Source: Escherichia phage K1G. Taken from it: a stretch of DNA of 43,587 nt. The notes under the pieces were generated by a model, which searched no databases, was not told where the DNA came from, and worked only from the letters and a program-made list of their open reading frames with translations. A program made the position numbers and the translations under genes. The stretch lies in sequence record NC_027993.1; one strand, written 5' to 3'. Positions 4,320-42,180 of the stretch are shown in pieces. Each line of letters starts with the position of its first letter. Position 1 is the first letter of the stretch.

Positions 4320-4324
4320 ACTGA

Positions 4325-4344
4325 AGCCCCGAAAGGGGCTTTTT
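4325..4344 (+). terminator. rho-independent terminator
   Basis: AGCCCC-GAAA-GGGGCT hairpin followed by TTTTT. Confidence 0.7.
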
Positions 4345-4408: not shown

Positions 4409-4437
4409 TTGACTTTTCACCAAAAATGTGCTAAGCT
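4409..4437 (+). promoter_or_regulatory. sigma70-like promoter TTGACT-N17-TAAGCT with TGn extension; -35 overlaps 16-bp perfect palindrome AACTATTCGAATAGTT (4395-4410)
   Basis: hexamers and spacing read directly; -10 is weak (3/6) but preceded by TG. Confidence 0.45.
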
Positions 4438-4617
4438 CCACCTGAGCTTGTGAAGTATGAACAAGCGACCGCGGCGCGGGCAGGTAACGGAGCGGGACGT
4501 AAGTCCTGAGTGTAGTTACGCTGACGCGTTCGGAAGGGCCATAGTCTATCGCTTGTGTAAAAAAGTAACTGGTTTACTGAGATTACGCCGTTTCTATGTT
4601 TAAATGATAAGGACTAG

Positions 4618-4640
4618 CGCCCCGCTTTATGGCGGGGCTT
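4618..4640 (+). promoter_or_regulatory. leader hairpin GCCCCGC-TTTATG-GCGGGGC (possible attenuator or processing site) just upstream of spanin RBS
   Basis: 7-bp GC stem followed by short TTTA; same hairpin in reverse orientation at 36779-36798. Confidence 0.4.
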
Positions 4641-4662
4641 TACTTATCGAGAAAGGAGAAAC

Positions 4663-5049
4663 ATGAATCTTAACGCAACTGTCGTAGCAGGAGCATGTTT
4701 CATCCTCCTGACATACGGCTACGGAATCTACCAGTATCGCAGCGGCTGGAACGAAGGCCGGGCGAATCTCGTTTCGCAGCAACAGCAGAAAGCACAGGCT
4801 GAGTTAGCGAAGAAAACACAACGGCAGCAGCAGGATGAATCAAAGGCCGCAGCCGCTGACAACGAAGGCAAGACGAAATCAGAGGTGATCACACGTGAAG
4901 TCGTTAAGTACATTAAAACGCCTGGTCGCAGCGTGTGCGCTTTTGACCCTGAGCGCGTGCAGCTCAAGTCCCGCGCCGTCGCAAACGCCAATTCCATCCC
5001 CGGATACGACGATGATGCAGCCGCCGTGCAAACTGGCGCCGCCAAGTAG
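4663..5049 (+). CDS. i-spanin (Rz-like)
   Basis: 128 aa; N-terminal TM segment VVAGACFILLTYGYGIY, Gln/Ala-rich coiled-coil periplasmic region; RBS AAGGAG; embedded out-of-frame lipoprotein ORF. Confidence 0.65.
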   Translation: MNLNATVVAGACFILLTYGYGIYQYRSGWNEGRANLVSQQQQKAQAELAKKTQRQQQDESKAAAADNEGKTKSEVITREVVKYIKTPGRSVCAFDPERVQLKSRAVANANSIPGYDDDAAAVQTGAAK

Positions 5050-5158
5050 CGACGCTGACGAGGATTTAGCTGCCGACGTCCGGAACGCCGAATGCGCACG
5101 GCAACTGCGCCTGAAAGTATTCCAGTTGCAGGATTATGTGAGGAATATTCTGGAATAG
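4895..5158 (+). CDS. o-spanin (Rz1-like lipoprotein), GTG start, +1 frame embedded in and extending past i-spanin
   Basis: signal peptide with lipobox LTLSAC, proline-rich mature region; RBS AGAGGTG upstream of GTG. Confidence 0.65.
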   Translation: MKSLSTLKRLVAACALLTLSACSSSPAPSQTPIPSPDTTMMQPPCKLAPPSSDADEDLAADVRNAECARQLRLKVFQLQDYVRNILE

Positions 5159-14722: not shown

Positions 14723-14752
14723 TTTAAACCCCTTCATTGTTGGTGTAAGTGA

Positions 14753-27598: not shown

Positions 27599-27628
27599 TT
27601 CTCAATTCCTTATATTGTTGGTGTAGGA

Positions 27629-27913: not shown

Positions 27914-28062
27914 GAGCGTAGATCCCAAGTAAGGAAAGCCCCTCCTAGAACGGCGACACCGACAAACTTAAAGAACAGGCCGTAACAGAACATCGCGGCT
28001 ATTCCTGCACCGAGTAGCAGTGCGAGCATGGTTACTATCACCCGAAATACGAACATTGTCAT
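27910..28062 (-). CDS. small membrane protein (50 aa, 2 predicted TM)
   Basis: strong RBS GGGAGGGG 9 nt upstream of ATG; hydrophobic MTMFVFRVIVTMLALLLGAGIAAMF... Confidence 0.4.
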   Translation of the reverse strand: MTMFVFRVIVTMLALLLGAGIAAMFCYGLFFKFVGVAVLGGAFLTWDLRS

Positions 28063-28144
28063 AATACGCACCCCTCCCGTTTGGTATGCTCAATTCCGCA
28101 GCGCGGGCAGATTCGACAGTCTTCTTCATAAAACCAGTAAATTT

Positions 28145-28276
28145 TCATTCCAGCACCCACAGATAAATTGCGATGAACATGCCCAATATGGCAACCATCA
28201 TGCCGTATTGACCCTCGTGACAGTAGACACCGGCAGCAAATCCCGCCAGTACCGCGATAATCAGTTTACTTGGCAT
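28145..28276 (-). CDS. small membrane protein (43 aa)
   Basis: ATG overlaps 3' end of polymerase gene; hydrophobic sequence MPSKLIIAVLAGFAAGVYCHEGQYGMMVAILGMFIAIYLWVLE. Confidence 0.3.
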   Translation of the reverse strand: MPSKLIIAVLAGFAAGVYCHEGQYGMMVAILGMFIAIYLWVLE

Positions 28277-30446
28277 AACGCTTCATCTCCGCGCCTTCTG
28301 CTACAAGAGGGAACCCCTCGGCCCACTCTGGTAATTCGCACATCAATCGTTCCAGTTCTGCGACATTGTATTCTGGTAAATCTGGTGTCTCGCAGATAAT
28401 CTCATCGTGAACATGAAGCACAATCGGGTAGCCGTTTGCTTCGACGTTCAGCAGTGCATTAGCCAACAAATCACGGCACAGCGCCTGAGTGCAGTTTTCC
28501 ACCAGTTTACCAGAGTAGGTGTACTGGAAGCCCCACTGACGGGTTAACTGGTTTTCGCCCTGGTACTTGATGCGCACGTTGGTAGACACCTTCCCGTCTT
28601 CGTCTGTCTCTTTCGACACGCTTAGCCCAACACCCGGATAAGACATAACGCGGCCCGACGGCAACGTCATCCGCAACCACCAACCGGCGACTTTGTTGCC
28701 GTTGTTGTCCGTTTCTACGTTGCGCGAAAACTTAACTCCCCGCGGCCCTGCGGTGAACTCTTTGCCCGGATTGCGGATAGCTGCCATAGCTGCGTCTTCA
28801 ATATCCCGCCAGAAAGCTACTGTTTCCGGGTGTGACTCACGCCACATACGCTTGATAGCGTCGCAGGTACGCCACACTTTCTTATCAAGAATATAAGATG
28901 GTCGGTCATCATTTTCACCTGGACGTGGTGGTCGCTTGGCTTCCTGAATACGCGCCCACTCATATCCACGTGCGGTAGCAGCCCAGATGTAGTCGGGGAA
29001 AGTCCCGTCCATTGTTTTTGCCATATCAACGAGGTCAAGGCCGAGGTTCTTGGCGAACTGTACGAATGCGCCGACACCACCCGCGTAGCCAAGTCCAAGT
29101 TCGCATGCCTTACCAATCTGGCGTAAGTCTTTACGTTCTTTCTTAATGTAATCCGGCTCCATGCCGAACATCTTGCCTGCGGTTACGCAGTAAATATCCA
29201 GCCCGGCACGGAACGTATCAAGCGCGGTTTCTTCGCCAGCCAGCCACGCCAAACCGCGGCCTTCAACGTTCGAGTAGTCGGCGACGACAAACTTATGTCC
29301 GGCTTCCGGGATAATGCAGCTGCGAACCGTAGATGCCGTTAGCTTGGCTACATCAAAACGGCGATGTGCTCGGCCCTTAAGTAATGCTGAAATACCTTTA
29401 TCCAGTTCATCATCGTGATAGTACCCACGCGCCAGGTTCTGCGGCTGGAAGCCTTTACCCGCAAATCGTAACGTACGTTTAGCTCCACCATACTGGATGC
29501 AACCGCGACGGCGGTCGTCAGACGAGCGGCCTAACAGCAGCGGGTTATATTTCGTTGACGCAGTGGATGCCGCCCCGAGGCGCATTTCTATAATCGTGCG
29601 GGCGTCGTCCGGTAAATCATCGTCAGCAAGCAGGTCGTTAAGCGTAGACTTCTGCGCGTTGTGGATGCGATGCGCAGGTGCCAGTTCACGCAGAATCGGC
29701 AGGAAGTCCTTACCTGTAAGCGAGCCGCCGTATTTACGTTGGGCTTCTTCCTGTAACTGTGCCTTGTGTTTCTCCACAGCTTCAATTGCGGCTTCCGCCA
29801 GCGCAACGTCGACCTTAAACCCGCGGTCGTTAATTAACTGGTCCAGTTCCAGTACACGGTCTTCGAACTCGGAGTTACCCCAACGCGGCAACTTATGGAA
29901 CACTTCACGCATCGCGGTGATGTCGCTAACGGCGTACTTGATGAACAGCGCCCACTCATCCGGGTGCGTTTCAGCAGTGTAGCGGCGAATTTTGTAGTTC
30001 TTCGGCGTCGGTTTAGAGAAACGCTGAATAAGCGCTTTGCCTCGTTTGTCTTTCGCGTTGTCTGCAGACACGCCAAGCACTTCGCACAATGCGTCGAGTG
30101 AACCCGGCAGCGCGTGACGAAACGCCCAAATCATCGTATCAATGGTGTTGCTTACGGGAATATCAAAACCCCAGCAGTGCTTCATGATGAGTCTGTCGAA
30201 CATTGAGCCGTTGTGCCACACCATCTTAATACGGCTGTTTGGTTTCACCAGACGGCGTAACGCGCGGTGCAAATCACCCGGCATGTCGCTGCCGTTGGTG
30301 CAATCCCATACCTGCACAGGCTCGTCGTCAAAAGCATATGTGCAGATTAGAACTTCGGTGGTTGGATGTTCGGCGTAAGCGTAGGAGCCGACTTTCTTCA
30401 AATCGGCTTCGGAGAATGTTTCAAAGTCTAAGAACAGGTAACTCAT
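28266..30446 (-). CDS. family-A DNA polymerase with 3'-5' exonuclease domain
   Basis: N-terminal Exo I motif FLDFETFS, C-terminal motif C HVHDEIICE; 726 aa. Confidence 0.85.
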   Translation of the reverse strand: MSYLFLDFETFSEADLKKVGSYAYAEHPTTEVLICTYAFDDEPVQVWDCTNGSDMPGDLHRALRRLVKPNSRIKMVWHNGSMFDRLIMKHCWGFDIPVSNTIDTMIWAFRHALPGSLDALCEVLGVSADNAKDKRGKALIQRFSKPTPKNYKIRRYTAETHPDEWALFIKYAVSDITAMREVFHKLPRWGNSEFEDRVLELDQLINDRGFKVDVALAEAAIEAVEKHKAQLQEEAQRKYGGSLTGKDFLPILRELAPAHRIHNAQKSTLNDLLADDDLPDDARTIIEMRLGAASTASTKYNPLLLGRSSDDRRRGCIQYGGAKRTLRFAGKGFQPQNLARGYYHDDELDKGISALLKGRAHRRFDVAKLTASTVRSCIIPEAGHKFVVADYSNVEGRGLAWLAGEETALDTFRAGLDIYCVTAGKMFGMEPDYIKKERKDLRQIGKACELGLGYAGGVGAFVQFAKNLGLDLVDMAKTMDGTFPDYIWAATARGYEWARIQEAKRPPRPGENDDRPSYILDKKVWRTCDAIKRMWRESHPETVAFWRDIEDAAMAAIRNPGKEFTAGPRGVKFSRNVETDNNGNKVAGWWLRMTLPSGRVMSYPGVGLSVSKETDEDGKVSTNVRIKYQGENQLTRQWGFQYTYSGKLVENCTQALCRDLLANALLNVEANGYPIVLHVHDEIICETPDLPEYNVAELERLMCELPEWAEGFPLVAEGAEMKRYAK

Positions 30447-30460
30447 TATTTTTGACCCTT

Positions 30461-30486
30461 AGTAAAAAGGCCCAATGAAGGGCCTT
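30461..30486 (-). terminator. rho-independent terminator for leftward transcripts
   Basis: minus-strand AAGGCCC-UUCAUU-GGGCCUU followed by UUUAC. Confidence 0.6.
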
Positions 30487-30505
30487 AGTTAAATTGATTC
30501 AGATA

Positions 30506-31132
30506 TTAGCGACGACGACGCTCGCGGCGCGGTGCTTCATCTTCTTCGTCGTCTTCCAGGTCATTTACGCTGGCAGCGACTTTAGAACCGCCAAACGCTT
30601 TACCTTCACCAACGTATTTAATAGCCAGCAGGTTAACGCCGAGGACTTTGTATTTCTGGCTGAACCAGATTTCAACGCTTACGTTAGCGACGCAGCCGCT
30701 GTAAACCTGTTCACCTTCAATCTGTTCGCCGTCTACATTGAAGTCCTGTTCTACCTGAGTCTCGCCTTTTTTAGAGGTTACAATCAGTGGCTGTTTCTGT
30801 GCCTTCGCCTTGAAGTAGAAGCCTTCCGGGAAGTCTTCAAACGGATTGTCGCGCTCGGCAATGTCTTTAATCGCACATTTATCCATGTGCTTACCTTCGC
30901 CGTAGTTGGACTTCATCCACTTCTCAGCGGCAGCTGCGCCCAACGCTTCTTCAACCACAGCGTAAACGGTGTCGTAGAGCGCGTCGATTTGTGCGTGGTC
31001 AGACGGCAGGATGATAGTCGCGCTGTACTGGCCTTTAGTGATTGAGCCATCATCGTTTTCACGGTCTTTTTCGCGTTCGAATACGTTAACCCATGCAGTG
31101 TTTACTTTACGCAGATTCAGTTTAATACCCAT
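30506..31132 (-). CDS. ssDNA-binding protein (DUF2815-like) with acidic C-terminal tail
   Basis: 208 aa, C-terminus DLEDDEEDEAPRRERRRR; adjacent to Cas4-like exonuclease and polymerase as in known phage replication modules. Confidence 0.65.
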   Translation of the reverse strand: MGIKLNLRKVNTAWVNVFEREKDRENDDGSITKGQYSATIILPSDHAQIDALYDTVYAVVEEALGAAAAEKWMKSNYGEGKHMDKCAIKDIAERDNPFEDFPEGFYFKAKAQKQPLIVTSKKGETQVEQDFNVDGEQIEGEQVYSGCVANVSVEIWFSQKYKVLGVNLLAIKYVGEGKAFGGSKVAASVNDLEDDEEDEAPRRERRRR

Positions 31133-31185
31133 CGTGATTTCTCGCTTTTCAGTTTACTCCGGGAACTGCCCGGCCAGTGATTAGA

Positions 31186-31214
31186 ACTATAATAGCTAAC
31201 TATTCGGGTGTCAA
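31186..31214 (-). promoter_or_regulatory. early promoter TTGACA-N17-TATAGT (family 1)
   Basis: minus strand TTGACAcccgAATAGTTAGCTATTATAGTT; near-palindromic AATAG-N4-CTATT. Confidence 0.6.
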
Positions 31215-31218
31215 CACT

Positions 31219-32469
31219 TTATTCCAAATCTTCTTCACTAACCTGATTCCACTCAGGACGTTTGTCGTCTGCCGTTGCGACACATGGTGCGCCTGGCTTA
31301 CGGGTAATAAACGGCTCAAGCGCTGCCATCTCATCCGCAGAAAGAACTTTTGCTGCCTCCGTAGGGGACATCAATACCTCTTTTTTGAGAATGTCGCCGT
31401 GTGACACTTCAATCGCATCGGCATCTTTCCACGCACGATTACCCAGGCGGCCTTCTACCAGTTTGTACCCTGGCACTTTATTACCGGAATGCAATGCGGC
31501 GGACATCGCTTTCTCAACCTTGTCGATGTGCTGGCGCAACAGCGGCAACTTCTCATACTCAACTACGAGTTGCTCCGTCGTCAGTTCCAGCACAAAGTCG
31601 TCTTCAAGTTCTTCCGCTAGTACAGAATTAACCGTCTTTGTACGCGCGGCACACTGTTCAGAGAACCGGCACCACTGGCAACCATCGACCGACGGTTTAA
31701 AGTCCGACGCTTTCAGGTTCTTCTTTCCACGGAAATAAGCATCAAGCGCTAACAGTGCCCGTTTCTGTGCGAACTTAGCGAACAGTTCCAGACCTTCGAC
31801 CGAGATGTCCCACTCTGACGCACCCCCCGCGTACGGCTGGAAGATGACCAGGCGCACTACTGTGATGTTATAACGTCTCTTGAGTCGGCGATAAACACCG
31901 AGAGCGTAAAGCATAAGCTGCTTGTTTTCTTTCGCTTCAACACGATGCCGTCCAGTTTTAAGGTCGCCAATAATGAGCATGTGCTCGTCGGTGTTCGCCA
32001 GTTCCTGGACAGCAACGAGGTCAGCCGTTCCGAACGTCTCGACACCTTCATACCCAGGATGCAATACCTCAGTAAGATTGACTCGCATTTCCAGCTTGGC
32101 GTAAGTCGCTACGTCGATAATCGCTTTGCAGTAGTCGGTGTACTTGCGCACCTGCTCAATCATGTCCGCCGTAATCAGTACCGCGCCTTTCATTGGGCTG
32201 ATTAGCGCCTTAATCTGGCCTTTACCTTCATCCAGCACGTAAGCGCCGACTTCACGCTCTAATGGCAGAGCAGTGCCTTTGATGTACTGGTTAAGGTGCA
32301 TCTCCGCTATGGTGTGGCATGCAGTCCCTGTAACGGCGGCTTTACCAGACGTGTTGGGAATATCTTTCTCACAGGCCAGTGATGCACTGCACGCCAGCCA
32401 CTTTTTAGCGCCAGACGGCGACAGTAAGGCGTGCACATCGTTATTGCCGCCGCGTTCCTTTAAAATCAT
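31219..32469 (-). CDS. Cas4/RecB-like PD-(D/E)xK exonuclease (DUF2800-like)
   Basis: N-terminal LLSPSGAKKWLACSA, nuclease motif IIGDLKTG...QLMLYA, C-terminal Cys cluster CQWCRFSEQC; ATG at 32469 with RBS GGGAGAG. Confidence 0.7.
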   Translation of the reverse strand: MILKERGGNNDVHALLSPSGAKKWLACSASLACEKDIPNTSGKAAVTGTACHTIAEMHLNQYIKGTALPLEREVGAYVLDEGKGQIKALISPMKGAVLITADMIEQVRKYTDYCKAIIDVATYAKLEMRVNLTEVLHPGYEGVETFGTADLVAVQELANTDEHMLIIGDLKTGRHRVEAKENKQLMLYALGVYRRLKRRYNITVVRLVIFQPYAGGASEWDISVEGLELFAKFAQKRALLALDAYFRGKKNLKASDFKPSVDGCQWCRFSEQCAARTKTVNSVLAEELEDDFVLELTTEQLVVEYEKLPLLRQHIDKVEKAMSAALHSGNKVPGYKLVEGRLGNRAWKDADAIEVSHGDILKKEVLMSPTEAAKVLSADEMAALEPFITRKPGAPCVATADDKRPEWNQVSEEDLE

Positions 32470-32738
32470 ACCCTGCTCTCCCACTGGTCAATTAAATGTC
32501 GTGTCTTATGGTCGCAGTGCATAGCCCAGCCATACATCGACTCGAAGACGTAAAAGTCCGGTTTGGCGAAAGTCGAGCGCTTAATATGTGACACGTGGCG
32601 GCCTATGTCTTTAGGCCGTGGCACTTTGCCTAAGTACGCCATATCTTCCATCTGGTGTGCACCGGACGGCGCACGCAATAACCATAGTGCCTCTGTGTTA
32701 TCCCGCCGGTCAACGGCGCGGTATAGTTGGTAAATCAT
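32466..32738 (-). CDS. hypothetical protein
   Basis: 90-aa ORF, stop overlaps exonuclease start. Confidence 0.5.
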   Translation of the reverse strand: MIYQLYRAVDRRDNTEALWLLRAPSGAHQMEDMAYLGKVPRPKDIGRHVSHIKRSTFAKPDFYVFESMYGWAMHCDHKTRHLIDQWESRV

Positions 32739-32781
32739 AATCCCGACCCTCAGTTAAAGCGGCCCGAAGGCCGCGGGATAG

Positions 32782-33303
32782 TTATTCTTCTTCGAAATAC
32801 TTGTTCTTGATTGCTGTCAGGCGCTCCAGATACTCAGCCAGGTCTTCGTCTTTAATCGCTGCAATCTTCATCTTCTTACCGGTAAACTCTTCCAGCAGTT
32901 CGTCAGAATCGTCGCACGCGGCATCGCTTGGGCCTTCGTTAATCGCATCGTCGATAGCCTGAATCTGGTCGCGCAGAGACTGGTAATCGACTTCTTCTTT
33001 CTCTTCTTCCGGCTCTGGCGTTGGTTCCTCTACTTTGTCCTTACGCGGCTTGCGCTTCGGCTTCTCTTCTTCTGCTGGTTTAGTGTCGACGATGTCTTCA
33101 CCTTCAACCGGGATTTCTTTCGCCTTCTCGACTTCTTCAAGTGCTTTAGCCAGTTCTTTTTTAACTGTCTCTACCCCAGTTACCGCGACGTCAACAGTCA
33201 ATTCACCTACAGATTTGCTAGTCGGTTGTTTCACACTGTTTGCAGCAATCAGTTCGTGGGCGACTACGAAACGTTCCAGTAATACCAAGAATTTCTCTAA
33301 CAT
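32782..33303 (-). CDS. acidic early protein
   Basis: 173 aa, strongly acidic C-terminal two thirds; strong RBS GAGGAGAG; first gene after promoter 33335-33363. Confidence 0.6.
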   Translation of the reverse strand: MLEKFLVLLERFVVAHELIAANSVKQPTSKSVGELTVDVAVTGVETVKKELAKALEEVEKAKEIPVEGEDIVDTKPAEEEKPKRKPRKDKVEEPTPEPEEEKEEVDYQSLRDQIQAIDDAINEGPSDAACDDSDELLEEFTGKKMKIAAIKDEDLAEYLERLTAIKNKYFEEE

Positions 33304-33334
33304 TTGTTTCTCTCCTCTCGTTTGGTATGGGCTA

Positions 33335-33363
33335 ACTATAATAGCGAACTATTCACTTGTCAA
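33335..33363 (-). promoter_or_regulatory. early promoter TTGACA-N17-TATAGT (family 1)
   Basis: minus strand TTGACAagtgAATAGTTCGCTATTATAGTT. Confidence 0.6.
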
Positions 33364-33427
33364 TGGGCTTTTCTAAAATAATTAATATGGTACTATTCAC
33401 ATATCAACTGACTAAGGAGTAATTGGC

Positions 33428-33643
33428 ATGCAACCATCTGAACTAGGTATCCGTGTAGAGCAACGCCGTAAAGAACTCGGTATCTCCCAGCGCCATCTGG
33501 CTGTCCTGGCCGGTGTTTCCCAAGGCGCGATTAACCAGCTGGCACTTGGGGTAACTCAGGACGTCCGCCCAGCGACGCTGTTTAAACTGGCGGAAGTGCT
33601 GCAAGTAGACGCCAAGTGGCTGGCGTTCGGTGAAGGGGCTTAA
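33428..33643 (+). CDS. XRE/Cro-type HTH transcriptional regulator
   Basis: 71 aa; HTH segment ISQRHLAVLAGVSQGAINQL; RBS AAGGAG; divergent from leftward early operon. Confidence 0.7.
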   Translation: MQPSELGIRVEQRRKELGISQRHLAVLAGVSQGAINQLALGVTQDVRPATLFKLAEVLQVDAKWLAFGEGA

Positions 33644-33660
33644 CGCCCCTTTCTTTTTAT
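33635..33660 (+). terminator. rho-independent terminator
   Basis: GGGGC-TTAAC-GCCCC hairpin followed by TTTCTTTTTAT. Confidence 0.7.
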
Positions 33661-33854
33661 TGCACCTTTATCGGGTATCTTTTGCGAAACTTACCTAACC
33701 CGCAGTATACGCTGTAAGCCTCTGTGTAACTGTACACAACATGATACCCGCGCCCGTAAGGAACTACGTTAAGAACTTCCACTACTTCGCCTCTGTGGTT
33801 GGTGTATTTATTACCTTTAAGTTCGTCGCTTACTTCTTTAAATTTACCGCTCAT
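33657..33854 (-). CDS. hypothetical protein
   Basis: 65-aa ORF, start overlaps primase-helicase stop. Confidence 0.5.
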   Translation of the reverse strand: MSGKFKEVSDELKGNKYTNHRGEVVEVLNVVPYGRGYHVVYSYTEAYSVYCGLGKFRKRYPIKVQ

Positions 33855-36118
33855 TCCAAATCCTCCTCTGTCACTGTCAGCATCTCATTCGGTTCATATA
33901 TTGTCTTCGGAATCTTGTTATCAGTTATCCGGGTGTTCAGCCTGTAACGGCCAGGGATTATCTGATTGTTTTCGTCAGTCCCCGGAACAAGATACCCAGC
34001 CTCAACCATTTTCTTAATCTTCCCGCGTTCTATGGCTTCTTTGGAGTTAAACGCCTTTGCATTGGGGTCAGACTGTGCGAGCTTATTAGCGGCGGCGACT
34101 GTGATGCCTTCGTTGCCGTTGTAGGTTCCTTCCGCCAGTTCAAACGCCGCCAGTATCGTGGCTTCTGAACTGTTGACGGCGTTCTCTATGGTTTTACGTA
34201 CGTTTTCTTTACCTTCTTTCGTCAACCCTTCTTCCCGCTCTTTCTCCTCGTCAGTCTTGAACGGCTCGAAACCCCACGGCATTAACACAAGTGCCTTATG
34301 CGGCTCCGGCAGGTCTAGGTTTACGATTGTGCCGTATTCCTCCGTGCTACCGAGGAACTCAACCGCACGGTACTCTTTCGGCGGCGGCGCTTCACGGAAC
34401 TGTACAGACTCCAGCACCATACCAACCGTCTTCTGTTGAGGCCCGTGCTTGAATTTCGAGTGGTATACATTTATCTGGCGGTCGGTAGCTCGTTCGATTG
34501 TCAGTTCCACGTCGACGCCAGCATACAGCGCCCCACTGCCACGGGCTTTCTTTCCGCCCTTCGGCGTATGGTGGACAACGCCTACCGCAGCTTTAGTCGC
34601 GTCACGTACTTCTTTCAGGATGGCGATAACCTTACCCATGCCGATTGCCGTTGATGAACTGTTCTCGTCGAACTTATCAATCGTCAGGGCTAGCGTCTGG
34701 TTGAGGGTGTCGAACGCAACCATGCCGATGGGTTCGTCACCCGCAGTTTCACGCATCAACTTAATCAGGCTTTTCAGTTTTCCGACTTCGCCCATGTCGA
34801 TGACATGTACATAATCTTTACCTTCCTCGCTATACTTAGCTGCGAGCGCATCGATACGGGTGCGTGTAGCTGCGCCGCCCTCACCGTCGATATAAAAATG
34901 GTGGCAACGCTGCGTATCTGCCCCCGCAAACCGGTATCCGGCGGCGCTCAGGTACATCATCCCCAGCGTATAGAACGATTTGTACGTGCCGGATTCCCCG
35001 ACAATATCCCAGATACAATCTGACGGCATGTACCCTTCAACGACGAAATCCGCCTTTACCGGTTCCGGTAACTCGTCATCCTCTGAGTCCTCGTCATCTT
35101 CCAGGTCGTCGAGGCTGCATGAAACAGATTCACGTGCACCCCATCCGATGGCCTCTGCGACTTCACTGAACGGCAGCCCCGTCGCATCGCACGCATACTT
35201 CCACACCTCTTTCGGTGACATGCCTTCGGTCGCCGTAATGTCAGTGTCGTGAATCATGGTTACGTTCGGCGCCTCATATCCCTCTCGCGGGAAGCACAGC
35301 AGGAAGTCATCCGGGCGCGGCGTCGGGTCGCTGTAGTTTTCTGCGTGTTCTGGCGTAGCTGGCATCTTAAGGCCTCGTGGCGTCATGATACCGCCATACT
35401 CGAACGCCAGTGCCTCGAACGCGTCGGTAAACGCGGTGCGCAGTTCTTCCGGTATCTGGTAATCCGATGCGCTGCTAACGTCAACGGCGGGGATGCCTTC
35501 CAGTAACTCGTCCGGGTCAATCAGGTCGTTGCGGCGTGACCAGATAACGGTAGAGCCAACCGGAGGCAGGTACATCGGTTGCGAAAGAGTGAACCCGCTG
35601 CGGTCAGCACCCATGCTTTTGAAGAAGTGTTCCAGCAATCCATGGCGAACACGGATGATGTCACCACCTTCGACCGGACGGGCCAGCGGCATGACGACGC
35701 GAAAGCGCGGGGACTCGTCGGTATGTGATGCCGTGGTATAGATACACATGCCCCGGCGGCTGCGTTTAACTAAGCGCACCGCTTCCTGATACTCTTCTGG
35801 TGTTGCGCTGTCGAAGTCCAGATACGCCAGCGACGATTTGCTTACAGACGCGTCACAGCGATAGAAAAAGCCTTTACGCGCTTGCTTAAAGTCGCCGGTT
35901 TCCGGGTCTTTTACAGTGCTGTGCGTCGAGTCGCACGCGGCGGTGATATAACCGGGCGCGGTCTTCGGGTTAATTCCGTCACGGACAGCATCGAGTGGCT
36001 GGATTAACTCTTTCAGGTCGTCCAGTGTTGCCGTGTGTGTGGTTCTGACGTTTATATCCTTTTTCTCAGCCCGCGCGTTGCGACGCGACCACGAGTAGGA
36101 TAAAATTACATCGGACAT
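33851..36118 (-). CDS. DNA primase/helicase (RecA-fold ATPase)
   Basis: 755 aa; Walker A-like GESGTYKSF, large N-terminal domain; RBS GAAGGAAA. Confidence 0.7.
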   Translation of the reverse strand: MSDVILSYSWSRRNARAEKKDINVRTTHTATLDDLKELIQPLDAVRDGINPKTAPGYITAACDSTHSTVKDPETGDFKQARKGFFYRCDASVSKSSLAYLDFDSATPEEYQEAVRLVKRSRRGMCIYTTASHTDESPRFRVVMPLARPVEGGDIIRVRHGLLEHFFKSMGADRSGFTLSQPMYLPPVGSTVIWSRRNDLIDPDELLEGIPAVDVSSASDYQIPEELRTAFTDAFEALAFEYGGIMTPRGLKMPATPEHAENYSDPTPRPDDFLLCFPREGYEAPNVTMIHDTDITATEGMSPKEVWKYACDATGLPFSEVAEAIGWGARESVSCSLDDLEDDEDSEDDELPEPVKADFVVEGYMPSDCIWDIVGESGTYKSFYTLGMMYLSAAGYRFAGADTQRCHHFYIDGEGGAATRTRIDALAAKYSEEGKDYVHVIDMGEVGKLKSLIKLMRETAGDEPIGMVAFDTLNQTLALTIDKFDENSSSTAIGMGKVIAILKEVRDATKAAVGVVHHTPKGGKKARGSGALYAGVDVELTIERATDRQINVYHSKFKHGPQQKTVGMVLESVQFREAPPPKEYRAVEFLGSTEEYGTIVNLDLPEPHKALVLMPWGFEPFKTDEEKEREEGLTKEGKENVRKTIENAVNSSEATILAAFELAEGTYNGNEGITVAAANKLAQSDPNAKAFNSKEAIERGKIKKMVEAGYLVPGTDENNQIIPGRYRLNTRITDNKIPKTIYEPNEMLTVTEEDLE

Positions 36119-36176
36119 GTTATATTTCCTTCAGCAAGTAATTTGGCCTCGGCGTTCACCGCGTCGGGGCTTTCTT

Positions 36177-36452
36177 TTATTCCAGGTCGCGGGAGATATT
36201 ACCCTCGGGCACCAACACTTTTCCAATACTTCTCGCTTTCTCTGTAATAGGCGTCGCTCTTGTTGCCCGATAAAACTTTCCTTTATTAAGAATCTCACCA
36301 TGTCGCTCGAGCACATCTAAAGCATGTTTGATCGGGTTTACACCGTAATTATCCAACCGGTATCTCCGAAGCCCGTCTACCGTAAAAGCGCCGTTCGCTT
36401 CGGTCAGTCTGCGTGCACACATTAATATGTGTTTCTGGAATTTAGTTAGCAT
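36177..36452 (-). CDS. hypothetical protein
   Basis: ATG at 36452 with RBS AAGGAG; overlaps 3' end of upstream HTH gene. Confidence 0.45.
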   Translation of the reverse strand: MLTKFQKHILMCARRLTEANGAFTVDGLRRYRLDNYGVNPIKHALDVLERHGEILNKGKFYRATRATPITEKARSIGKVLVPEGNISRDLE

Positions 36453-36621
36453 CTTTAACGTTCTCCTTAATCCACGCCTCCACAGTAGCGCGGTCAAAGG
36501 TACCTGGCTGACGGTAGCCGTTGATAACGCGGCAACACTCCGGGAACTTTCCTGACCGAAGCCAGCGATTAAGAGTCATAGGGGAAACCCCGATTAAGTC
36601 TGCTACTTCTTTCTGTGTCAT
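36442..36621 (-). CDS. AlpA/Xis-like HTH DNA-binding protein
   Basis: MTQKEVADLIGVSPMTLNRWLRSGKFP; ATG at 36621 with RBS GAGGG (track ORF begins at TTG 36651). Confidence 0.6.
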   Translation of the reverse strand: MTQKEVADLIGVSPMTLNRWLRSGKFPECCRVINGYRQPGTFDRATVEAWIKENVKDAN

Positions 36622-36778
36622 TTTACGCGCCCTCTCTATCAAGTGAAACAACTATAACACCTACAATAGACAAACACAACCTATTGACAAAATAAAATGT
36701 AGCTGTAAAATCAACGTATCGAATGGCTTTAGTTAAGAATTACTTAGAAACAATATTCTTAAGTCTCGGGTACTTAAA

Positions 36779-36798
36779 GCCCCGCCATAAAGCGGGGC
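36779..36798 (-). promoter_or_regulatory. leader hairpin, reverse-orientation copy of the 4618-4637 hairpin
   Basis: GCCCCGC-CATAAA-GCGGGGC on + strand equals reverse complement of the spanin leader hairpin. Confidence 0.35.
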
Positions 36799-37042
36799 GC
36801 TAAATAGTACTCTTGGTAACGTTAGTATCTAAGTTTCCTCAAAGTAACAGCAAGTGGCAAGAAAGCCCCCGTCTATTTAAATTTTACCCTCCTTCATAAG
36901 CCACTGATAATTAAAAGTTTCTATAGTTGCCGTAAACGTGGAAGAGAGTACTTCACTTCGCTGGGGTGGGCTAACGCCCACCCACTGCGTTGCGTACTCT
37001 TTTAAGAAACGAAAGAATCACAACGGCAACGTAACTATTCTC

Positions 37043-37071
37043 TTGCACACCCCAACATAATAGGATACTAT
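37043..37071 (+). promoter_or_regulatory. early promoter TTGCAC-N17-TACTAT (family 2)
   Basis: cTTGCACaccccaacatAATAGGATACTATTcac. Confidence 0.5.
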
Positions 37072-37096
37072 TCACTTATCGAAACGAGACAGAGGA

Positions 37097-37502: not shown

Positions 37503-37705
37503 TGCGAATCCGTATAACTGACCGCAGGCTTATCCGTATAACTGACCGCAGGCTTATCCGTATAACTGACCGCAGGCTTATAGATTTCGGTATCTCGGTA
37601 GGTGATGTTTTTCCGGCGTTCAGCATCAACCATTATGGTTTTATGATTGAGTACAAAGGGTCGTTATTGTTCGTGTATCGGGATGAATGTGAGGTTCTGG
37701 TATGA
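37502..37705 (+). CDS. small protein containing three RITDRRLI repeats
   Basis: ATG overlaps upstream stop (TAATG), RBS GAGGGAGG; 3 x 24 bp tandem repeat is in frame. Confidence 0.4.
   Translation: MRIRITDRRLIRITDRRLIRITDRRLIDFGISVGDVFPAFSINHYGFMIEYKGSLLFVYRDECEVLV
37510..37581 (+). repeat. perfect tandem direct repeat, 3 x 24 bp (CCGTATAACTGACCGCAGGCTTAT)
   Basis: three identical consecutive 24-mers read directly. Confidence 0.9.
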
Positions 37706-38358: not shown

Positions 38359-38365
38359 AATTTAC

Positions 38366-38394
38366 TTGCACACTAAGATAGAATAGGCTACTAT
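38366..38394 (+). promoter_or_regulatory. early promoter TTGCAC-N17-TACTAT (family 2)
   Basis: cTTGCACactaagatagAATAGGCTACTATTcat. Confidence 0.5.
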
Positions 38395-38425
38395 TCATTT
38401 ACACAAACGAGAGGAGAGACGGAAG

Positions 38426-39532: not shown

Positions 39533-39607
39533 ACCGTTATTAAGATAATTCCTACCCGTGGTATCCTCCAGTTACTGCATACTTAATACGCACCTGGAGG
39601 ATTCATC

Positions 39608-39916
39608 TTGGATAAATTTACTGAAACAGTGACGGGGTGGCTTCTCGCCGCCGCACTGGTCGGTGGATTGGTCGGGCTAAGACAACATAAAAAGTCTATA
39701 TCCGGGCCGATTGACGGACTGGTATTTCTTCTCACCGGCTTCGCGTGTGCTATTTTCGGTGCACCTCTTGCCGCTCAATGGTTCGGTATTACCGGTGAGC
39801 GTGAGATAGCTGGCCTCGGATTCATCATTGCCATTCTCTGGATGCCTATCTATTCCCGCCTTTCTGGCATCGTATCGGGTGGCGATATTGCCCGCCCAGG
39901 AGGACCGCATGACTGA
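39608..39916 (+). CDS. holin candidate (TTG start)
   Basis: 102 aa with 2-3 hydrophobic helices; RBS GGAGGA 6 nt upstream of TTG; immediately upstream of endolysin cassette. Confidence 0.5.
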   Translation: MDKFTETVTGWLLAAALVGGLVGLRQHKKSISGPIDGLVFLLTGFACAIFGAPLAAQWFGITGEREIAGLGFIIAILWMPIYSRLSGIVSGGDIARPGGPHD

Positions 39917-40181
39917 GCTATTCTGGTTTGTCACAATGCTTTCAATGGGCGCTTCGTCCCTGTTCAACGTGTATAATGAACGCGTGGACGACGGGCTGTT
40001 CGGGCGTGTTCTCTATATCCTGACTGCTATCGTCTGTGCCGCCGGATGTGTTCACCTGTTACAGGGCAGCATGTCGCCTACGCTGCCTGAGACATTAATC
40101 ACATTAGTCGCGCTGCGCCAGATTCGCCAGGCGTGGCTGTCATACGGAGGACATAAGCGTGTCTCGAAATATTTCAGATAA
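39909..40181 (+). CDS. second holin-like membrane protein (holin/antiholin)
   Basis: ATG 39909 with RBS AGGAGG; two hydrophobic segments; overlaps neighbours. Confidence 0.5.
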   Translation: MTELFWFVTMLSMGASSLFNVYNERVDDGLFGRVLYILTAIVCAAGCVHLLQGSMSPTLPETLITLVALRQIRQAWLSYGGHKRVSKYFR

Positions 40182-40644
40182 TGGATTGCATTTCTGTGCC
40201 GCGTTCGAGGGATTCCGCGGAACTGCGTATCGCGCTACGCCGAATGAGAAGTATCTTACTATTGGCTACGGTCACTACGGGCCAGACGTAACACCAGGTA
40301 AGACCATCACACCAGGACAGGGCTTGCTGTTACTGAATCGCGATATGGCTAAGGCTGTAGCTGCTGTTGACGCAGCAGCACACCATTCGCTTACACAGGC
40401 ACAGTTCGATGCGGTGTGTGACCTGGTCTATAACGTGGGGGCTGGCGTGATTTCGGCTACTACCGGTACAGGTAAGGCACTGCGCTCCGGTGATATCGCG
40501 ACGTTACGGGCTAAGCTGGCGCTGTTCATCAACCAGAACGGCAAACCACTACTTGGCCTGCGTCGCCGTACAGCCGGGCGTCTGGCGCTGTTCGACGGTA
40601 AACCGTGGCAAGAGGCTGAGGCTATCGGTAGGGCGGTTAAATGA
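40159..40644 (+). CDS. endolysin, T4-lysozyme-like (GH24), GTG start
   Basis: AAFEGFRGTAY...TIGYGHYG catalytic-region motif; RBS ACGGAGGA. Confidence 0.8.
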   Translation: MSRNISDNGLHFCAAFEGFRGTAYRATPNEKYLTIGYGHYGPDVTPGKTITPGQGLLLLNRDMAKAVAAVDAAAHHSLTQAQFDAVCDLVYNVGAGVISATTGTGKALRSGDIATLRAKLALFINQNGKPLLGLRRRTAGRLALFDGKPWQEAEAIGRAVK

Positions 40645-40771
40645 TGGACGAATACGAAGGCGTTTAGTAAACTTACATCCACGCTGTTTGTGCCTGCATA
40701 CTAAGCCCCGGTAAACCCGAAGCAGCAGCCCAAGCGGTGGAGACTGCGTAGGGTTCAGGGGCTTATGCCCG

Positions 40772-41778: not shown

Positions 41779-41947
41779 ACCCGTAGTTATCGATGGCGTC
41801 CTGTGGAAACCATACTCGGTTAACCACATCGACGCCGACGGGAAGAAGTTCAGCTTCTACATTTTTGCAATTAGCCGTGAGCACGCCGCTTGTGTGGTCG
41901 ACGATATACGAGAAACGGCGTGGCTCGGTGATGAGATAGTGGGGTGA
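41765..41947 (+). CDS. hypothetical protein
   Basis: 60-aa ORF in coupled series. Confidence 0.45.
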   Translation: MKAPEPVVIDGVLWKPYSVNHIDADGKKFSFYIFAISREHAACVVDDIRETAWLGDEIVG

Positions 41948-42180
41948 GTATGTTTCACGAACTGAAGATATTACCTGATCATTTTGAGCCTGTTATGGCG
42001 GGAATCAAGCGGGCGGAACTTCGATTAAACGACCGCGACTTTAAGGAATATGACACTCTGTGCCTGCGAGAATACGAAAACGGTGAGTACACAGGCCGTA
42101 TCGTTTACCGCCGCATCATTCATGTTGCGGACGTAGGGGCTTACCTACCAGGGTACGTGCTATTAAGTATGGAGGGTTGA
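41944..42180 (+). CDS. ASCH/PUA-like (DUF3850-like) protein
   Basis: HELKILPDHFEPVMAGIKRAELRLNDRDFKEYDTLCLREY matches recalled DUF3850 pattern. Confidence 0.5.
   Translation: MSMFHELKILPDHFEPVMAGIKRAELRLNDRDFKEYDTLCLREYENGEYTGRIVYRRIIHVADVGAYLPGYVLLSMEG

What the first reader, a model, noticed from the sequence alone, without database searches (positions are those of the whole stretch)
36779..36798. Identical 7-bp-stem hairpin in the leaders of two oppositely oriented operons
GCCCCGC-UUUAUG-GCGGGGC precedes the spanin RBS on the plus strand (4618-4637). The exact reverse complement lies at 36779-36798, upstream of the leftward AlpA-like/primase operon. Both are followed by only a short UUUA, so they are weak terminators at best; paired leader hairpins suggest attenuation/antitermination or an RNA-processing site.
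Basis: seen in the sequence. Interest (0 to 1): 0.4.

Follow-up and report, generated by a model that had tools for sequence, protein, structure and literature searches.

The report
Phage RNA hairpin copied in reverse
The two hairpins are real copies of one sequence, but the first closes a strongly conserved, previously undescribed non-coding RNA unit just before the phage's spanin (lysis) gene. The second is a reversed copy found in only a few close relatives, and it lies outside the leftward operon's transcript.

Summary
GCCCCGC-N6-GCGGGGC occurs twice (4619-4638 and 36779-36798), and the exact inverted repeat is 28 bp long (4615-4642 / 36775-36802). The window is a Kagunavirus (Guernseyvirinae), about 98% identical to K1ind2/K1ind3.

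- **Site 1** is the 3' stem-loop of a roughly 200-nt non-coding unit with its own promoter (4409-4642). The unit is 95-99% identical in about 177 phages, while flanking genes are 62-90% identical to Salmonella phage SETP13. Its core is a structured RNA supported by covariation, with no Rfam match.
- **The site 1 stem** is kept by compensatory changes across the subfamily, but the U-tract is not kept. It is therefore a leaky terminator or 3'-end hairpin that every spanin transcript must cross.
- **Site 2** occurs in only seven closely related lineages. It lies upstream of the leftward promoter, so it is not in that operon's leader. It sits inside a rightward non-coding early unit driven by a consensus sigma-70 promoter, where it is read in the opposite sense and has no U-tract.

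If both units are transcribed rightward, the two RNAs would be complementary over 28 nt. However, the loops do not co-vary in four of six lineages, so an antisense role is weakly supported.

The parts
4321..4342 (+). Canonical intrinsic terminator (GAAGCCCC-GAAA-GGGGCTTTTT) that ends the upstream Hoc-like head-decoration gene. It marks the left border of the non-coding island.
   Evidence: repeat families D2/D8, with copies at 2752, 12303 and 24822; fold -15.5 kcal/mol.
4409..4437 (+). Sigma-70-type promoter of the non-coding unit (TTGACT-17 nt-TAAGCT).
   Evidence: Read from the sequence. It is kept in every class A and class B copy. The Jersey-type homologue has TAGACT-17-TACGCT. PHIRE predicted a host promoter here in fBC-Eco01.
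4436..4557 (+). Structured RNA core: a small 5' hairpin, a long irregular hairpin, and the conserved single-stranded motif UUCGGAAGGGCC.
   Evidence: Covariance model R1 gives 148 bits here, the only copy in the window. Covariation: 97.2% of cells paired against 86.2% in shuffles (0/500), 9 pairs changed on both sides, slid controls 33-44%. The same architecture appears in ten variants folded separately. No Rfam match.
4558..4614 (+). A+U-rich linker between the core and the terminal hairpin.
   Evidence: Part of the 95-99% conserved block.
4615..4642 (+). Copy 1 of the 28-bp repeat; hairpin at 4619-4638 followed by UUUACUUAUC. It is the 3' stem-loop of the unit and a leaky terminator just before the spanin ribosome-binding site.
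   Evidence: The stem is kept by compensatory changes across the subfamily. ARNold predicted a terminator at this hairpin in fBC-Eco01.
4663..5158 (+). Spanin genes: Rz-like i-spanin at 4663-5049 and the overlapping o-spanin at 4895-5158. They have no promoter of their own.
   Evidence: annotation of K1ind2 and other relatives.
36442..36621 (-). First gene of the leftward operon: a 59-aa HTH_17 (excisionase/AlpA-like) protein. The probable start is ATG 36621, preceded by GAGAGGG.
   Evidence: Pfam HTH_17, E = 2.9e-9. The homologue is annotated at 59 aa in EC3-1.
36663..36690 (-). Probable leftward early promoter (TTGTCA-16-TATTGT). It lies between site 2 and the HTH gene.
   Evidence: It lies inside the 43-nt block invariant in all seven carriers. 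fKuEco01 has the same back-to-back arrangement.
36684..36711 (+). Rightward consensus promoter (TTGACA-16-TAAAAT, 11/12) of the early non-coding unit; the start site is near 36718.
   Evidence: Invariant in seven lineages. CCTATTGACA is also kept at this position in Jersey-type phages.
36718..37000 (+). Early non-coding unit (about 280 nt). Its 5' module (36712-36897) is specific to this lineage. Its 3' part (about 36893-37000) is homologous to the tail of class B2 units in other phages.
   Evidence: There are no conserved ORFs, and relatives annotate nothing here.
36775..36802 (.). Copy 2 of the 28-bp repeat, inverted; hairpin at 36779-36798. On the plus strand it has no U-tract. On the minus strand it is followed by UUUAAGUA.
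   Evidence: It is present only in the window, K1ind2, K1ind3, K1H, EC3-1, LM02P1 and one IMG/VR contig.
36963..36984 (+). Second strong hairpin (GGGGTGGGC-TAAC-GCCCACCC). It occupies the position of the unit-ending terminator-like hairpins of relatives.
   Evidence: fold -23.3 kcal/mol, z = -4.2; comparison with relatives.
37042..37078 (+). Phage-family promoter (TTGCAC-17-TACTAT, with a conserved spacer) just before the first rightward early gene (ATG 37106).
   Evidence: (I1, I2, I6).

Best explanation
The two hairpins are two copies, in opposite orientation, of one 28-bp G+C-rich stem-loop. Both lie inside rightward non-coding transcription units, not in the leaders of two opposed operons.

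Copy 1 (4619-4638) is the conserved 3' stem-loop of a roughly 200-nt unit: sigma-70 promoter 4409-4437, structured RNA core 4436-4557, A+U-rich linker, hairpin. This unit precedes the spanin ribosome-binding site in all Guernseyvirinae examined. The hairpin most likely forms and protects the 3' end of that RNA by inefficient intrinsic termination, possibly with processing. The transcripts that pass it become the mRNA for the spanins and probably the head genes downstream.

Copy 2 (36779-36798) is a recent copy specific to one lineage. It lies about 60 nt into a rightward early non-coding unit driven by the consensus promoter at 36684-36711, and upstream of the leftward promoter. Read on the plus strand it has the same stem but a complemented loop and flanks and no U-tract. 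There it is a structural stem-loop, the counterpart of the unrelated 5'-proximal hairpins that other lineages carry at this position, and not a terminator.

Shown: the sequences, the conservation, the covariation and the positions relative to promoter-like sites. Inferred: that the predicted promoters fire, where the RNA ends lie, and what the hairpins do.
For: - **Repeat:** 28-bp exact inverted repeat, not a chance match.
- **Conservation peak:** 4357-4665 is 95-99% identical in 177 of 179 phage records, both Escherichia and Salmonella phages. Against Salmonella phage SETP13, flanking genes are 62-90% identical while 4400-4599 is 96-98% identical.
- **Not coding:** indels shift the reading frames between relatives, and the Jersey-type homologue lacks the start codon.
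- **Structured core:** the covariance model finds one copy per spanin locus, always on the spanin strand. Cells are 97.2% paired against 86.2% in shuffles (0/500), 9 pairs change on both sides, and slid controls give 33-44%. G-U pairs fit only the plus strand.
- **Hairpin stem under selection:** pair 5 is C-G, G-C or U-A and pair 6 is G-C or A-U; 98.9% of cells are paired. The loop varies freely (TTTATG, TTTAAG, TTTACG, TTTAGG, CTTAAG), and the hairpin-to-RBS distance of 13 nt is constant.
- **U-tract not conserved:** it is absent in the Jersey type (TTAGCGTATAAAG).
- **Read-through is obligatory:** no promoter lies between the hairpin and the spanin gene.
- **Site 2 strand:** an 11/12 plus-strand promoter and the leftward promoter sit in an invariant 43-nt block. 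Every lineage has a plus-strand promoter-to-hairpin unit at this position, and many carry a paralogue of the site 1 core there.
- **Shared tail:** the 3' part of the window's unit is homologous to class B2 tails.
- **Equivalent hairpins elsewhere:** other lineages carry different strong hairpins without U-tracts about 60-80 nt after the plus-strand start.
- **Site 2 distribution:** restricted to seven close lineages. No second copy exists in seven other whole genomes.
Against: - There are no transcript data. The only Kagunavirus RNA-seq paper found reports gene-level counts only. All promoters, start sites and 3' ends are predictions.
- The hairpin is slightly more stable on the minus strand at site 2 (-21.8 against -19.0 kcal/mol). 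The repeat includes the UUUA that would serve a minus-strand terminator, and a weak minus-strand promoter-like site at 36910..36881 cannot be excluded.
- A purely structural role does not explain why exactly this 28-mer, flanks included, was copied and has stayed intact. With only seven close lineages this conservation is not statistically informative.
- The function of the conserved core is unknown, so the role assigned to the site 1 hairpin (3'-end formation with read-through) is the simplest reading, not a demonstrated one.
Confidence: 0.55

Rival explanations
1. Trans-antisense pair. The early rightward RNA carries 28 nt perfectly complementary to the 3' hairpin of the site 1 RNA, which is also the spanin leader. 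Loop-loop kissing (UUUAUG with CAUAAA) would extend to a 28-bp duplex. That duplex would remove the terminator or create an RNase III site, so the early RNA would time spanin or structural-operon expression.
For: Complementarity is 28/28 if both units are transcribed rightward, and rightward promoters are predicted at both units. The early region and the site 1 unit are linked in other lineages too, where the early region carries a paralogue of the site 1 core. A 28-bp duplex would be long enough for RNase III (general knowledge, not tested).
Against: The loops do not co-vary. Site 1 and the reverse complement of site 2 are identical only in the window and EC3-1, and differ by one loop base in K1ind2, K1H, LM02P1 and IMG/VR contig 012512. 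About 170 relatives have the same site 1 hairpin and no antisense copy. Both partners are locked in stable hairpins of -18 to -19 kcal/mol, and the loops are A/U-rich. Apart from one 8-nt match (AAAGCCCC against GGGGCTTT), also in the hairpin region, the early unit shows only chance-level complementarity (7-8 nt) to the spanin leader.
Confidence: 0.12
2. Site 2 works on the minus strand, as the first reader assumed for the strand. It would be the same weak terminator as site 1, either ending a short antisense RNA started at a weak promoter (36910..36881) or insulating the leftward early promoter from stray leftward transcription.
For: On the minus strand the copy has the same flanks as site 1 (TAGC...TTTA). 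It gains a U-G closing pair and an A-tract/U-tract extension, giving -21.8 kcal/mol. A 9/12 promoter-like site lies about 100 nt upstream on that strand, and its hexamers are kept in the seven lineages.
Against: The U-tract is UUUAAGUA, which the terminator scan does not flag. No minus-strand gene lies upstream of it. The candidate promoter is weak (18-nt spacer, 9/12). Lineages without site 2 have no comparable minus-strand terminator at this place.
Confidence: 0.12
3. Paired attenuators. Each hairpin would be a regulated terminator in the 5' leader of its operon (spanin rightward, HTH/primase leftward), under common antitermination control.
For: Site 1 lies between a promoter and the spanin gene and must be read through.
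Against: Site 2 lies upstream of the leftward promoter. The pair is absent from most of the subfamily. Forbidding the hairpin costs 10-14 kcal/mol, and the alternative partner (GGAAGGGCC) does not co-vary with the stem. PHROGs and Pfam scans of about 20 small phage ORFs found no N- or Q-like antiterminator.
Confidence: 0.05
4. The conserved core is a cis-acting antitermination leader that works like the HK022 put RNAs, or like the lambda PR'-6S RNA-tR' late leader. RNA polymerase that has transcribed the core would become able to pass the site 1 hairpin and later terminators of the spanin-head-tail operon. Site 1 would then be the checkpoint terminator.
For: The architecture fits: a constitutive-type promoter, a promoter-proximal two-hairpin RNA, a terminator-like hairpin, then lysis (Rz/Rz1) and head genes with no other promoter. 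There is a second copy ahead of the rightward early operon in many phages. Extreme conservation across phages of E. coli and Salmonella would fit a conserved host target such as RNA polymerase (inference).
Against: This is resemblance only, recalled from knowledge of HK022 and lambda; no sequence or model comparison with put was made. Class B copies are followed by a separate phage promoter, so read-through is not needed there. The window lineage lacks the early copy altogether. The site 1 hairpin is already a weak terminator, and it has no U-tract in the Jersey type.
Confidence: 0.1
5. Site 2 has no function of its own. It would be a short patch copied from site 1 by template switching or illegitimate recombination between co-infecting phages, carried along in a mosaic early-region module.
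For: It is restricted to seven close lineages inside a module that is swapped as a block. Homology ends abruptly at 28 bp. The early region is highly mosaic. A palindrome-correcting variant of site 1 exists (TAAAG...CTTTA in IMG/VR contig 018086), which suggests template switching at this hairpin (inference).
Against: The stem and flanks are intact in all seven lineages while neighbouring bases vary by 3-6%, though the numbers are too small to be significant. The position matches that of strong hairpins in other lineages' units, which suggests that a hairpin is needed there.
Confidence: 0.06

Closest known systems
Leaky intrinsic terminators that end a leader-derived small RNA upstream of a gene (for example the trp-leader RNA rnTrpL, or riboswitch-derived SreA/SreB)
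   Same: Promoter, about 200 nt of structured non-coding RNA, a G+C-rich hairpin with a short U-run, then immediately the ribosome-binding site of a gene that has no promoter of its own.
   Different: No ligand, leader peptide or conserved antiterminator structure was found. The U-tract is lost in the Jersey-type homologue while the stem is kept. No transcript ends have been mapped.
Lambda PR'-6S RNA-tR' late leader (Q antitermination)
   Same: A constitutive-type promoter, a roughly 200-nt short transcript ending at a terminator, followed directly by lysis genes (here Rz/Rz1) and morphogenesis genes.
   Different: No Q-like protein was detected among about 20 small ORFs. Here the RNA itself is structured and co-varying. 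The terminator is weak. These are virulent siphoviruses, not lambdoid phages. The comparison rests on recalled knowledge of lambda.
HK022 put RNAs (RNA-only processive antitermination)
   Same: A promoter-proximal RNA made of two stem-loops, up to two copies per genome, each ahead of an operon and followed by terminator-like hairpins.
   Different: No sequence or model comparison was made. In HK022 the two copies lie in divergent operons, whereas here both are rightward. The window has only one copy. No function has been tested.
Antisense kissing-hairpin regulators (R1 CopA/CopT, ColE1 RNA I/RNA II, P22 sar)
   Same: Two stable hairpins whose loops and stems are exactly complementary (28 nt) if both units are transcribed rightward.
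   Different: The partners are encoded 11-32 kb apart, not on opposite strands of one locus. Loop complementarity is not conserved (4 of 6 lineages carry a mismatch). Most relatives lack the partner.
Families of near-identical terminators within one phage genome
   Same: The window has another such family (GGCCCC-loop-GGGGCC plus a T-run) at 2752, 4321, 12303 and 24822, in both orientations.
   Different: Those copies have full U-tracts and sit at gene ends. The GCCCCGC pair has short U-runs and sits inside non-coding units.

Membership tests
Intrinsic (Rho-independent) terminator | G+C-rich stem of 5 or more pairs with a loop of 3-8 nt | tested here: met
   7-8 pairs, 7 of them G-C; -17.9 kcal/mol, z = -3.3.
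Intrinsic (Rho-independent) terminator | U-rich tract directly after the stem | tested here: inconclusive
   Site 1 (UUUACUUAUC) passes the scan threshold of 5 T in 8. Site 2 is flagged on neither strand. The Jersey-type homologue of site 1 has UUAGCGUAUA.
Intrinsic (Rho-independent) terminator | Lies at the end of a transcription unit, with RNA 3' ends mapping there | not testable with these tools
   Site 1 closes a promoter-to-hairpin unit, but a gene without a promoter follows. No RNA-end data are available.
Transcription attenuator / riboswitch leader | Lies between the promoter and the regulated gene | tested here: met
   Met for site 1 only. Not met for site 2 with respect to the leftward operon.
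Transcription attenuator / riboswitch leader | A conserved, mutually exclusive antiterminator structure | tested here: not met
   Blocking the 3' arm costs 14 kcal/mol (Kagunavirus type) or 10 kcal/mol (Jersey type). The 5' arm then pairs with GGAAGGGCC, but this pairing does not co-vary with the stem variants.
Processive antitermination leader (HK022 put; lambda Q/qut-tR') | Promoter-proximal element upstream of terminators in the same transcript | tested here: met
   The core starts within about 10 nt of the predicted start site and is followed by the hairpin.
Processive antitermination leader (HK022 put; lambda Q/qut-tR') | Homology to put RNA, or presence of a Q/N-type antiterminator protein | tested here: not met
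   No Rfam match. PHROGs and Pfam scans of about 20 small ORFs found no antiterminator. Put itself was not compared directly.
Processive antitermination leader (HK022 put; lambda Q/qut-tR') | Makes RNA polymerase resistant to terminators | not testable with these tools
   Needs in vitro transcription.
Antisense kissing-hairpin pair | Extended exact complementarity between two RNAs | tested here: met
   28/28 in the window if both units are rightward. The strands are inferred from promoters.
Antisense kissing-hairpin pair | Loop complementarity maintained in evolution | tested here: not met
   Identical in 2 of 6 lineages, one loop mismatch in 4 of 6. The partner is absent from seven other genomes.
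Dispersed palindromic repeats (REP/BIME, MITE-like) | Many dispersed copies, also present in the host genome | tested here: not met
   Two copies in the window. A 241-nt query containing the 28-mer found nothing in 5,426 E. coli genomes.
Any Rfam family | Reaches a family's gathering score | tested here: not met
   0 matches in the whole window. Only sub-threshold chance hits at both sites.

The most novel reading that the evidence does not exclude
The promoter-core-hairpin unit would be a new class of phage cis-regulatory RNA that gates the spanin and structural operon through the site 1 hairpin, by modifying RNA polymerase as put does or by another RNA-based switch. In the K1-type lineage, an immediate-early RNA carrying the 28-nt antisense of that hairpin would tune the gate in trans. 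This would make a two-RNA timing circuit for lysis and late genes in a virulent siphovirus.
Probability: 0.1. Interest if true: 0.7.

Novelty: new member of a known kind. Interest (0 to 1): 0.4.

Why it matters
The hairpin pair on its own is a minor, lineage-specific curiosity. Following it exposes a discrete non-coding unit (promoter, about 120-nt co-varying RNA core, linker, hairpin). This unit is the most conserved stretch of the head-gene region in Guernseyvirinae phages of E. coli and Salmonella. It often has a second copy in the early control region, has no Rfam family, and I found no published description of it.

It sits exactly where transcription of the spanin genes, and probably the head genes, must begin. 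It is therefore a concrete and cheap target for working out how these widely used therapeutic-candidate phages time late and lysis gene expression. It also shows that genome annotations calling short 'hypothetical proteins' in this gap are probably wrong.

Tried and rejected
- **Known RNA families and tRNAs:** Rfam at gathering thresholds on the whole window, and at E up to 10 on both sites, gave nothing meaningful. ARAGORN found no tRNA or tmRNA.
- **Protein-coding reading of the site 1 gap:** the 48-aa ORF at 4457-4603, and the 36-38-aa ORFs that two relatives annotate, are not frame-conserved; the Jersey type lacks them. Rejected.
- **Extended homology between the two sites:** none beyond the 28 bp.
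- **Host origin:** a 241-nt query containing the 28-mer found no match in 5,426 complete E. coli genomes.
- **Occurrence outside the subfamily:** a degenerate core pattern hit only 40-45-kb Guernseyvirinae-type contigs in IMG/VR. In GTDB genomes, 44 pattern hits reduced to 2 true ones under the covariance model, both on tiny contigs that look like phage contamination.
- **A general 'second inverted copy' design:** absent in seven other whole genomes.
- **Antiterminator alternative structure:** not conserved.
- **Partner protein:** no antiterminator was found; the only lead is a DUF3850/ASCH protein at 41944-42177.
- **Literature:** no description of this RNA or of transcript maps was found. 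The single Kagunavirus RNA-seq paper is gene-level only.
- **Not attempted:** direct comparison with HK022 put, and a metagenome scan for more carriers of site 2.
Full report
**1. The observation**

Its exact reverse complement lies at 36779-36798. The pattern GCCCCGC-N6-GCGGGGC, even with one mismatch allowed, occurs only at these two places. The expected number is 0.02, and none of 100 shuffles gave two matches.

The identity extends to 28 bp: TAGCGCCCCGCTTTATGGCGGGGCTTTA at 4615-4642 against 36775-36802. This is the only perfect long inverted repeat in the window. Beyond those 28 bp the flanks are unrelated.

As RNA the stem-loop is stable: -17.9 kcal/mol at site 1, -21.8 at site 2 on the minus strand and -19.0 at site 2 on the plus strand. 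Because the stem arms are GCCCCGC and GCGGGGC, either strand gives the same stem. Only the 6-nt loop and the 4+4 flanking bases depend on strand.

**2. Context**

The window is a Kagunavirus (Guernseyvirinae), about 98% identical to K1ind2, K1ind3 and K1H over the region tested.

| Coordinates | Strand | Content |
|---|---|---|
| 1-24824 | + | terminase, portal, head, tail and tailspike genes |
| 25169-36621 | - | replication genes, ending with the primase-helicase and a 59-aa HTH_17 protein |
| from 37106 | + | small early genes, then holins and endolysin |

Site 1 lies in a 343-nt gap between a canonical terminator (4321-4342) and the spanin start (4663). Site 2 lies in the roughly 480-nt divergent gap between the HTH gene and the first rightward gene.

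**3. What site 1 belongs to**

*Conservation.* The gap is not ordinary spacer. Positions 4357-4665 are 95-99% identical in 177 of 179 matching phage records, from both Escherichia and Salmonella phages. Against Salmonella phage SETP13, flanking genes are 62-90% identical while 4400-4599 is 96-98% identical.

*Layout of the unit.* It contains a sigma-70-type promoter (TTGACT-17-TAAGCT, 4409-4437), about 120 nt of G+C-rich sequence, an A+U-rich linker, and then the hairpin. The spanin ribosome-binding site follows 14 nt after the hairpin.

*Not coding.* ORFs in the gap are not frame-conserved. Relatives differ by single-base indels, two relatives annotate short ORFs of different length there (36 and 38 aa), and the divergent homologue lacks the start codon.

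*Copies elsewhere.* An exact 31-mer of the core recovered 40 IMG/VR loci. These show two classes of unit, always on the same strand as the spanin gene.
- Class A lies upstream of the spanin gene in every phage.
- Class B is a paralogue with the same promoter and core but different 3' tails. In many phages it sits in the early divergent region, just upstream of the phage promoter TTGCAC-17-TACTAT.

Loci fetched with the spanin protein showed a much more diverged homologue in typical Jersey-type Salmonella phages. Its promoter is TAGACT-17-TACGCT, its 5' hairpin is different, and the central helix and the motif UUCGGAAGGGCC are retained.

*Structure.* Ten variants folded separately give the same architecture. 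A covariance model built from 17 sequences finds all copies. Kagunavirus types score 87-150 bits and Jersey types 35-42 bits.

On the resulting alignment, 97.2% of cells are paired against 86.2% in column shuffles (0 of 500 reach this). Nine pairs show changes on both sides, and sliding the partners drops pairing to 33-44%. That alignment is fitted to the model, which favours the structure. However, one position shows three different Watson-Crick pairs (C-G, U-A, A-U), and the apical helix is fully exchanged between variants, both visible in the raw sequences. The G-U pairs are compatible only with the plus strand.

*Where else it occurs.* The element has no Rfam match and no match in E. coli genomes. 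In IMG/VR it occurs only on contigs of about 40-45 kb, the Guernseyvirinae size. In bacterial genome assemblies there are two true hits, both on very small contigs that look like phage contamination. I found no description of it in the searchable literature.

**4. The site 1 hairpin itself**

Across the subfamily the stem is kept by compensatory changes:
- GCCCCGC/GCGGGGC
- GCCCTGC/GCAGGGC
- GCCCGGC/GCCGGGC
- GCCCGAC/GTCGGGC

Overall 98.9% of cells are paired, and two pairs change on both sides. The loop varies freely (TTTATG, TTTAAG, TTTACG, TTTAGG, CTTAAG, TTAC, TTCG, GTAA). The distance from the stem to the ribosome-binding-site block AGAAAGG is 13 nt in both types.

The U-run is not conserved. 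It is UUUACUUAUC in the Kagunavirus type, which the scan flags as terminator-like and which ARNold predicted as a terminator in fBC-Eco01. In the Jersey type it is UUAGCGUAUAAAG. By contrast, the window's clear terminators carry full T-runs.

No promoter can be placed between the hairpin and the spanin gene, so spanin transcripts must run through it. I conclude that selection acts on the RNA stem-loop. I infer that it defines and protects the 3' end of the non-coding RNA by inefficient termination, possibly with processing, and that read-through supplies the spanin mRNA.

I tested for a riboswitch-like antiterminator. Forbidding the hairpin costs 10-14 kcal/mol. The freed 5' arm then pairs with the conserved GGAAGGGCC motif, but this pairing does not follow the stem variants. 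Regulated attenuation is therefore not supported, though it is not excluded.

**5. What site 2 belongs to**

*Distribution.* The segment 36712-36897 that carries the hairpin is found only in the window, K1ind2, K1ind3, K1H, EC3-1, LM02P1 and one IMG/VR contig. All other relatives match this query only through their own site 1 28-mer. Seven other whole genomes have no second copy of their spanin-leader hairpin in either orientation.

*Promoters.* Within the seven carriers, a 43-nt block is invariant. It holds an 11/12 consensus rightward promoter (TTGACA-16-TAAAAT, 36684-36711). Overlapping it back to back is the best leftward promoter (TTGTCA-16-TATTGT, 36690..36663), about 35 nt from the HTH gene's ribosome-binding site.

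The hairpin therefore lies about 90 nt upstream of the leftward promoter and about 60 nt downstream of the rightward start. It is not in the leftward operon's leader.

*Support for the rightward reading.*
- Every lineage examined has a plus-strand promoter at this position. CCTATTGACA is shared even with Jersey-type phages.
- That promoter is followed by a roughly 280-nt non-coding stretch, a terminator-like hairpin with an imperfect U-run, and then the phage promoter.
- In many lineages this unit is the class B paralogue of the site 1 RNA.
- The 3' third of the window's unit (about 36893-37000, including the hairpin at 36963-36984) is homologous to class B2 tails.
- Lineages without a core carry other strong hairpins without U-tracts at about the same distance from the start.

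On the plus strand, site 2 reads GCCCCGC-CAUAAA-GCGGGGC followed by GCUAAAUAG. That is the same stem with no U-tract, so it is not a terminator in that sense.

**6. Are the two copies functionally coupled?**

If both units are transcribed rightward, the two RNAs are complementary over 28 nt. That suggests a kissing-hairpin antisense interaction between an early RNA and the spanin leader.

The comparative test does not favour it. Site 1 and the reverse complement of site 2 have identical loops only in the window and EC3-1. They differ by one loop base in K1ind2, K1H, LM02P1 and IMG/VR contig 012512. The site 1 loop variants are the ones common throughout the genus, whether or not a phage has site 2. 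Apart from one 8-nt match (AAAGCCCC against GGGGCTTT), also in the hairpin region, the early unit shows only chance-level complementarity (7-8 nt) to the spanin leader. I give this reading about 12%.

A minus-strand role for site 2 also stays at about 12%. It would be the terminator of a roughly 100-nt antisense RNA from a weak promoter at 36910..36881, or an insulator for the leftward promoter. In its favour, the hairpin is slightly more stable on that strand and the repeat includes UUUA. Against it, there is nothing obvious to terminate.

**7. Mechanism of the core**

The architecture is a constitutive-type promoter, a short structured RNA, a weak terminator, then Rz/Rz1 and the head genes. 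From general knowledge, this recalls the lambda PR'-6S RNA-tR' late leader and the HK022 put RNAs.

I could test only peripheral points. PHROGs and Pfam scans of about 20 small ORFs found no Q- or N-like protein, and Rfam gave no match. I therefore list this as a rival at about 10%, not as a membership claim.

**8. Verdict**

It is not supported for site 2, where the operon and probably the strand are wrong and there is no conserved pairing.

The pair is an ordinary, lineage-specific duplication of a stem-loop. The more interesting result is the conserved, apparently undescribed structured RNA unit that site 1 terminates.

Noticed in passing
window 4409-4642; class B paralogues e.g. L005:34284-34520, L008:7460-7760, L102:36080-36330: A promoter-core-tail non-coding RNA family restricted to Guernseyvirinae. 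It often has two copies per genome, one upstream of the spanin gene and one in the early control region. It has covariation support, no Rfam family, and I found no published description.
   Followed up: yes
window 37042-37078 (+), 38362-38408 (+), 14746-14782 (-), 33383-33403: A family of promoter-like sites, TTGCAC-17-TACTAT, whose spacer is also conserved (ACCCCAAyATAATAGGr). The conserved spacer suggests a bound factor or a phage-specific promoter class. A second leftward family (TTGAC..TATTATAGT) lies at 27626, 31180 and 33329.
   Followed up: partly
window 37508-37581: Three perfect tandem copies of a 24-bp unit (ATCCGTATAACTGACCGCAGGCTT) in the early rightward region, overlapping small ORFs. 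They could be iterons or an origin, or a repeat-encoded peptide.
   Followed up: no
window 4384-4402 and 5168-5186: The motif ATGTTGGAATAA(A/T)(C/T)TATTC occurs just upstream of a TTGAC(T/A) hexamer in two places: before the non-coding unit and before the scaffolding gene. It could be a shared regulator-binding or UP-like element.
   Followed up: no
window 36886-36894; L101, L103, L104 and L005 early units: All early non-coding units contain a C/U-rich motif that looks like an anti-Shine-Dalgarno sequence (CCCUCCUUC; CUUCCUUCC; CUCACUCACUCACUC with variable repeat number). They also share short motifs (TATCTAAGTT-like, GCCGTA). CUCACUC is complementary to GAGUGAG in the ribosome-binding site of the first early gene.
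   Followed up: no
between window 4342 and 4357 (equivalent positions in L002, L004, L049): This is an insertion hot spot between the canonical terminator and the non-coding unit. fBC-Eco01 carries two reverse-strand genes there, SETP13 an endonuclease VII gene and EC3-1 a hypothetical gene.
   Followed up: partly
L079 / L016 (IMG/VR contig 3300045988_018086), site 1: A variant in which the 5' flank of the hairpin is TAAAG instead of CTAGC. This makes a perfect extended palindrome (TAAAGCCCCGC...GCGGGGCTTTA), as expected from template-switch 'correction' of a quasi-palindrome.
   Followed up: no
L133 (JAEWLW010000073.1, 'Bacillota' MAG, 6.2-kb contig) and L135 (Taishania pollutisoli scaffold48, 738 nt): Two 'bacterial' assembly contigs carry the phage RNA core (121 and 42 bits). 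They are most likely Guernseyvirinae phage contamination or mis-binning.
   Followed up: partly
window 41944-42177 (+): A 78-aa DUF3850/ASCH-domain protein (PHROG 986, labelled 'RNA-binding protein'). It is the only predicted RNA-binding candidate among the small ORFs scanned.
   Followed up: no
window 4663-5158: The spanin genes sit inside the head-gene module, about 8 kb (across the genome ends) from the holin and endolysin genes at about 39600-40650. This placement is conserved across the subfamily.
   Followed up: no
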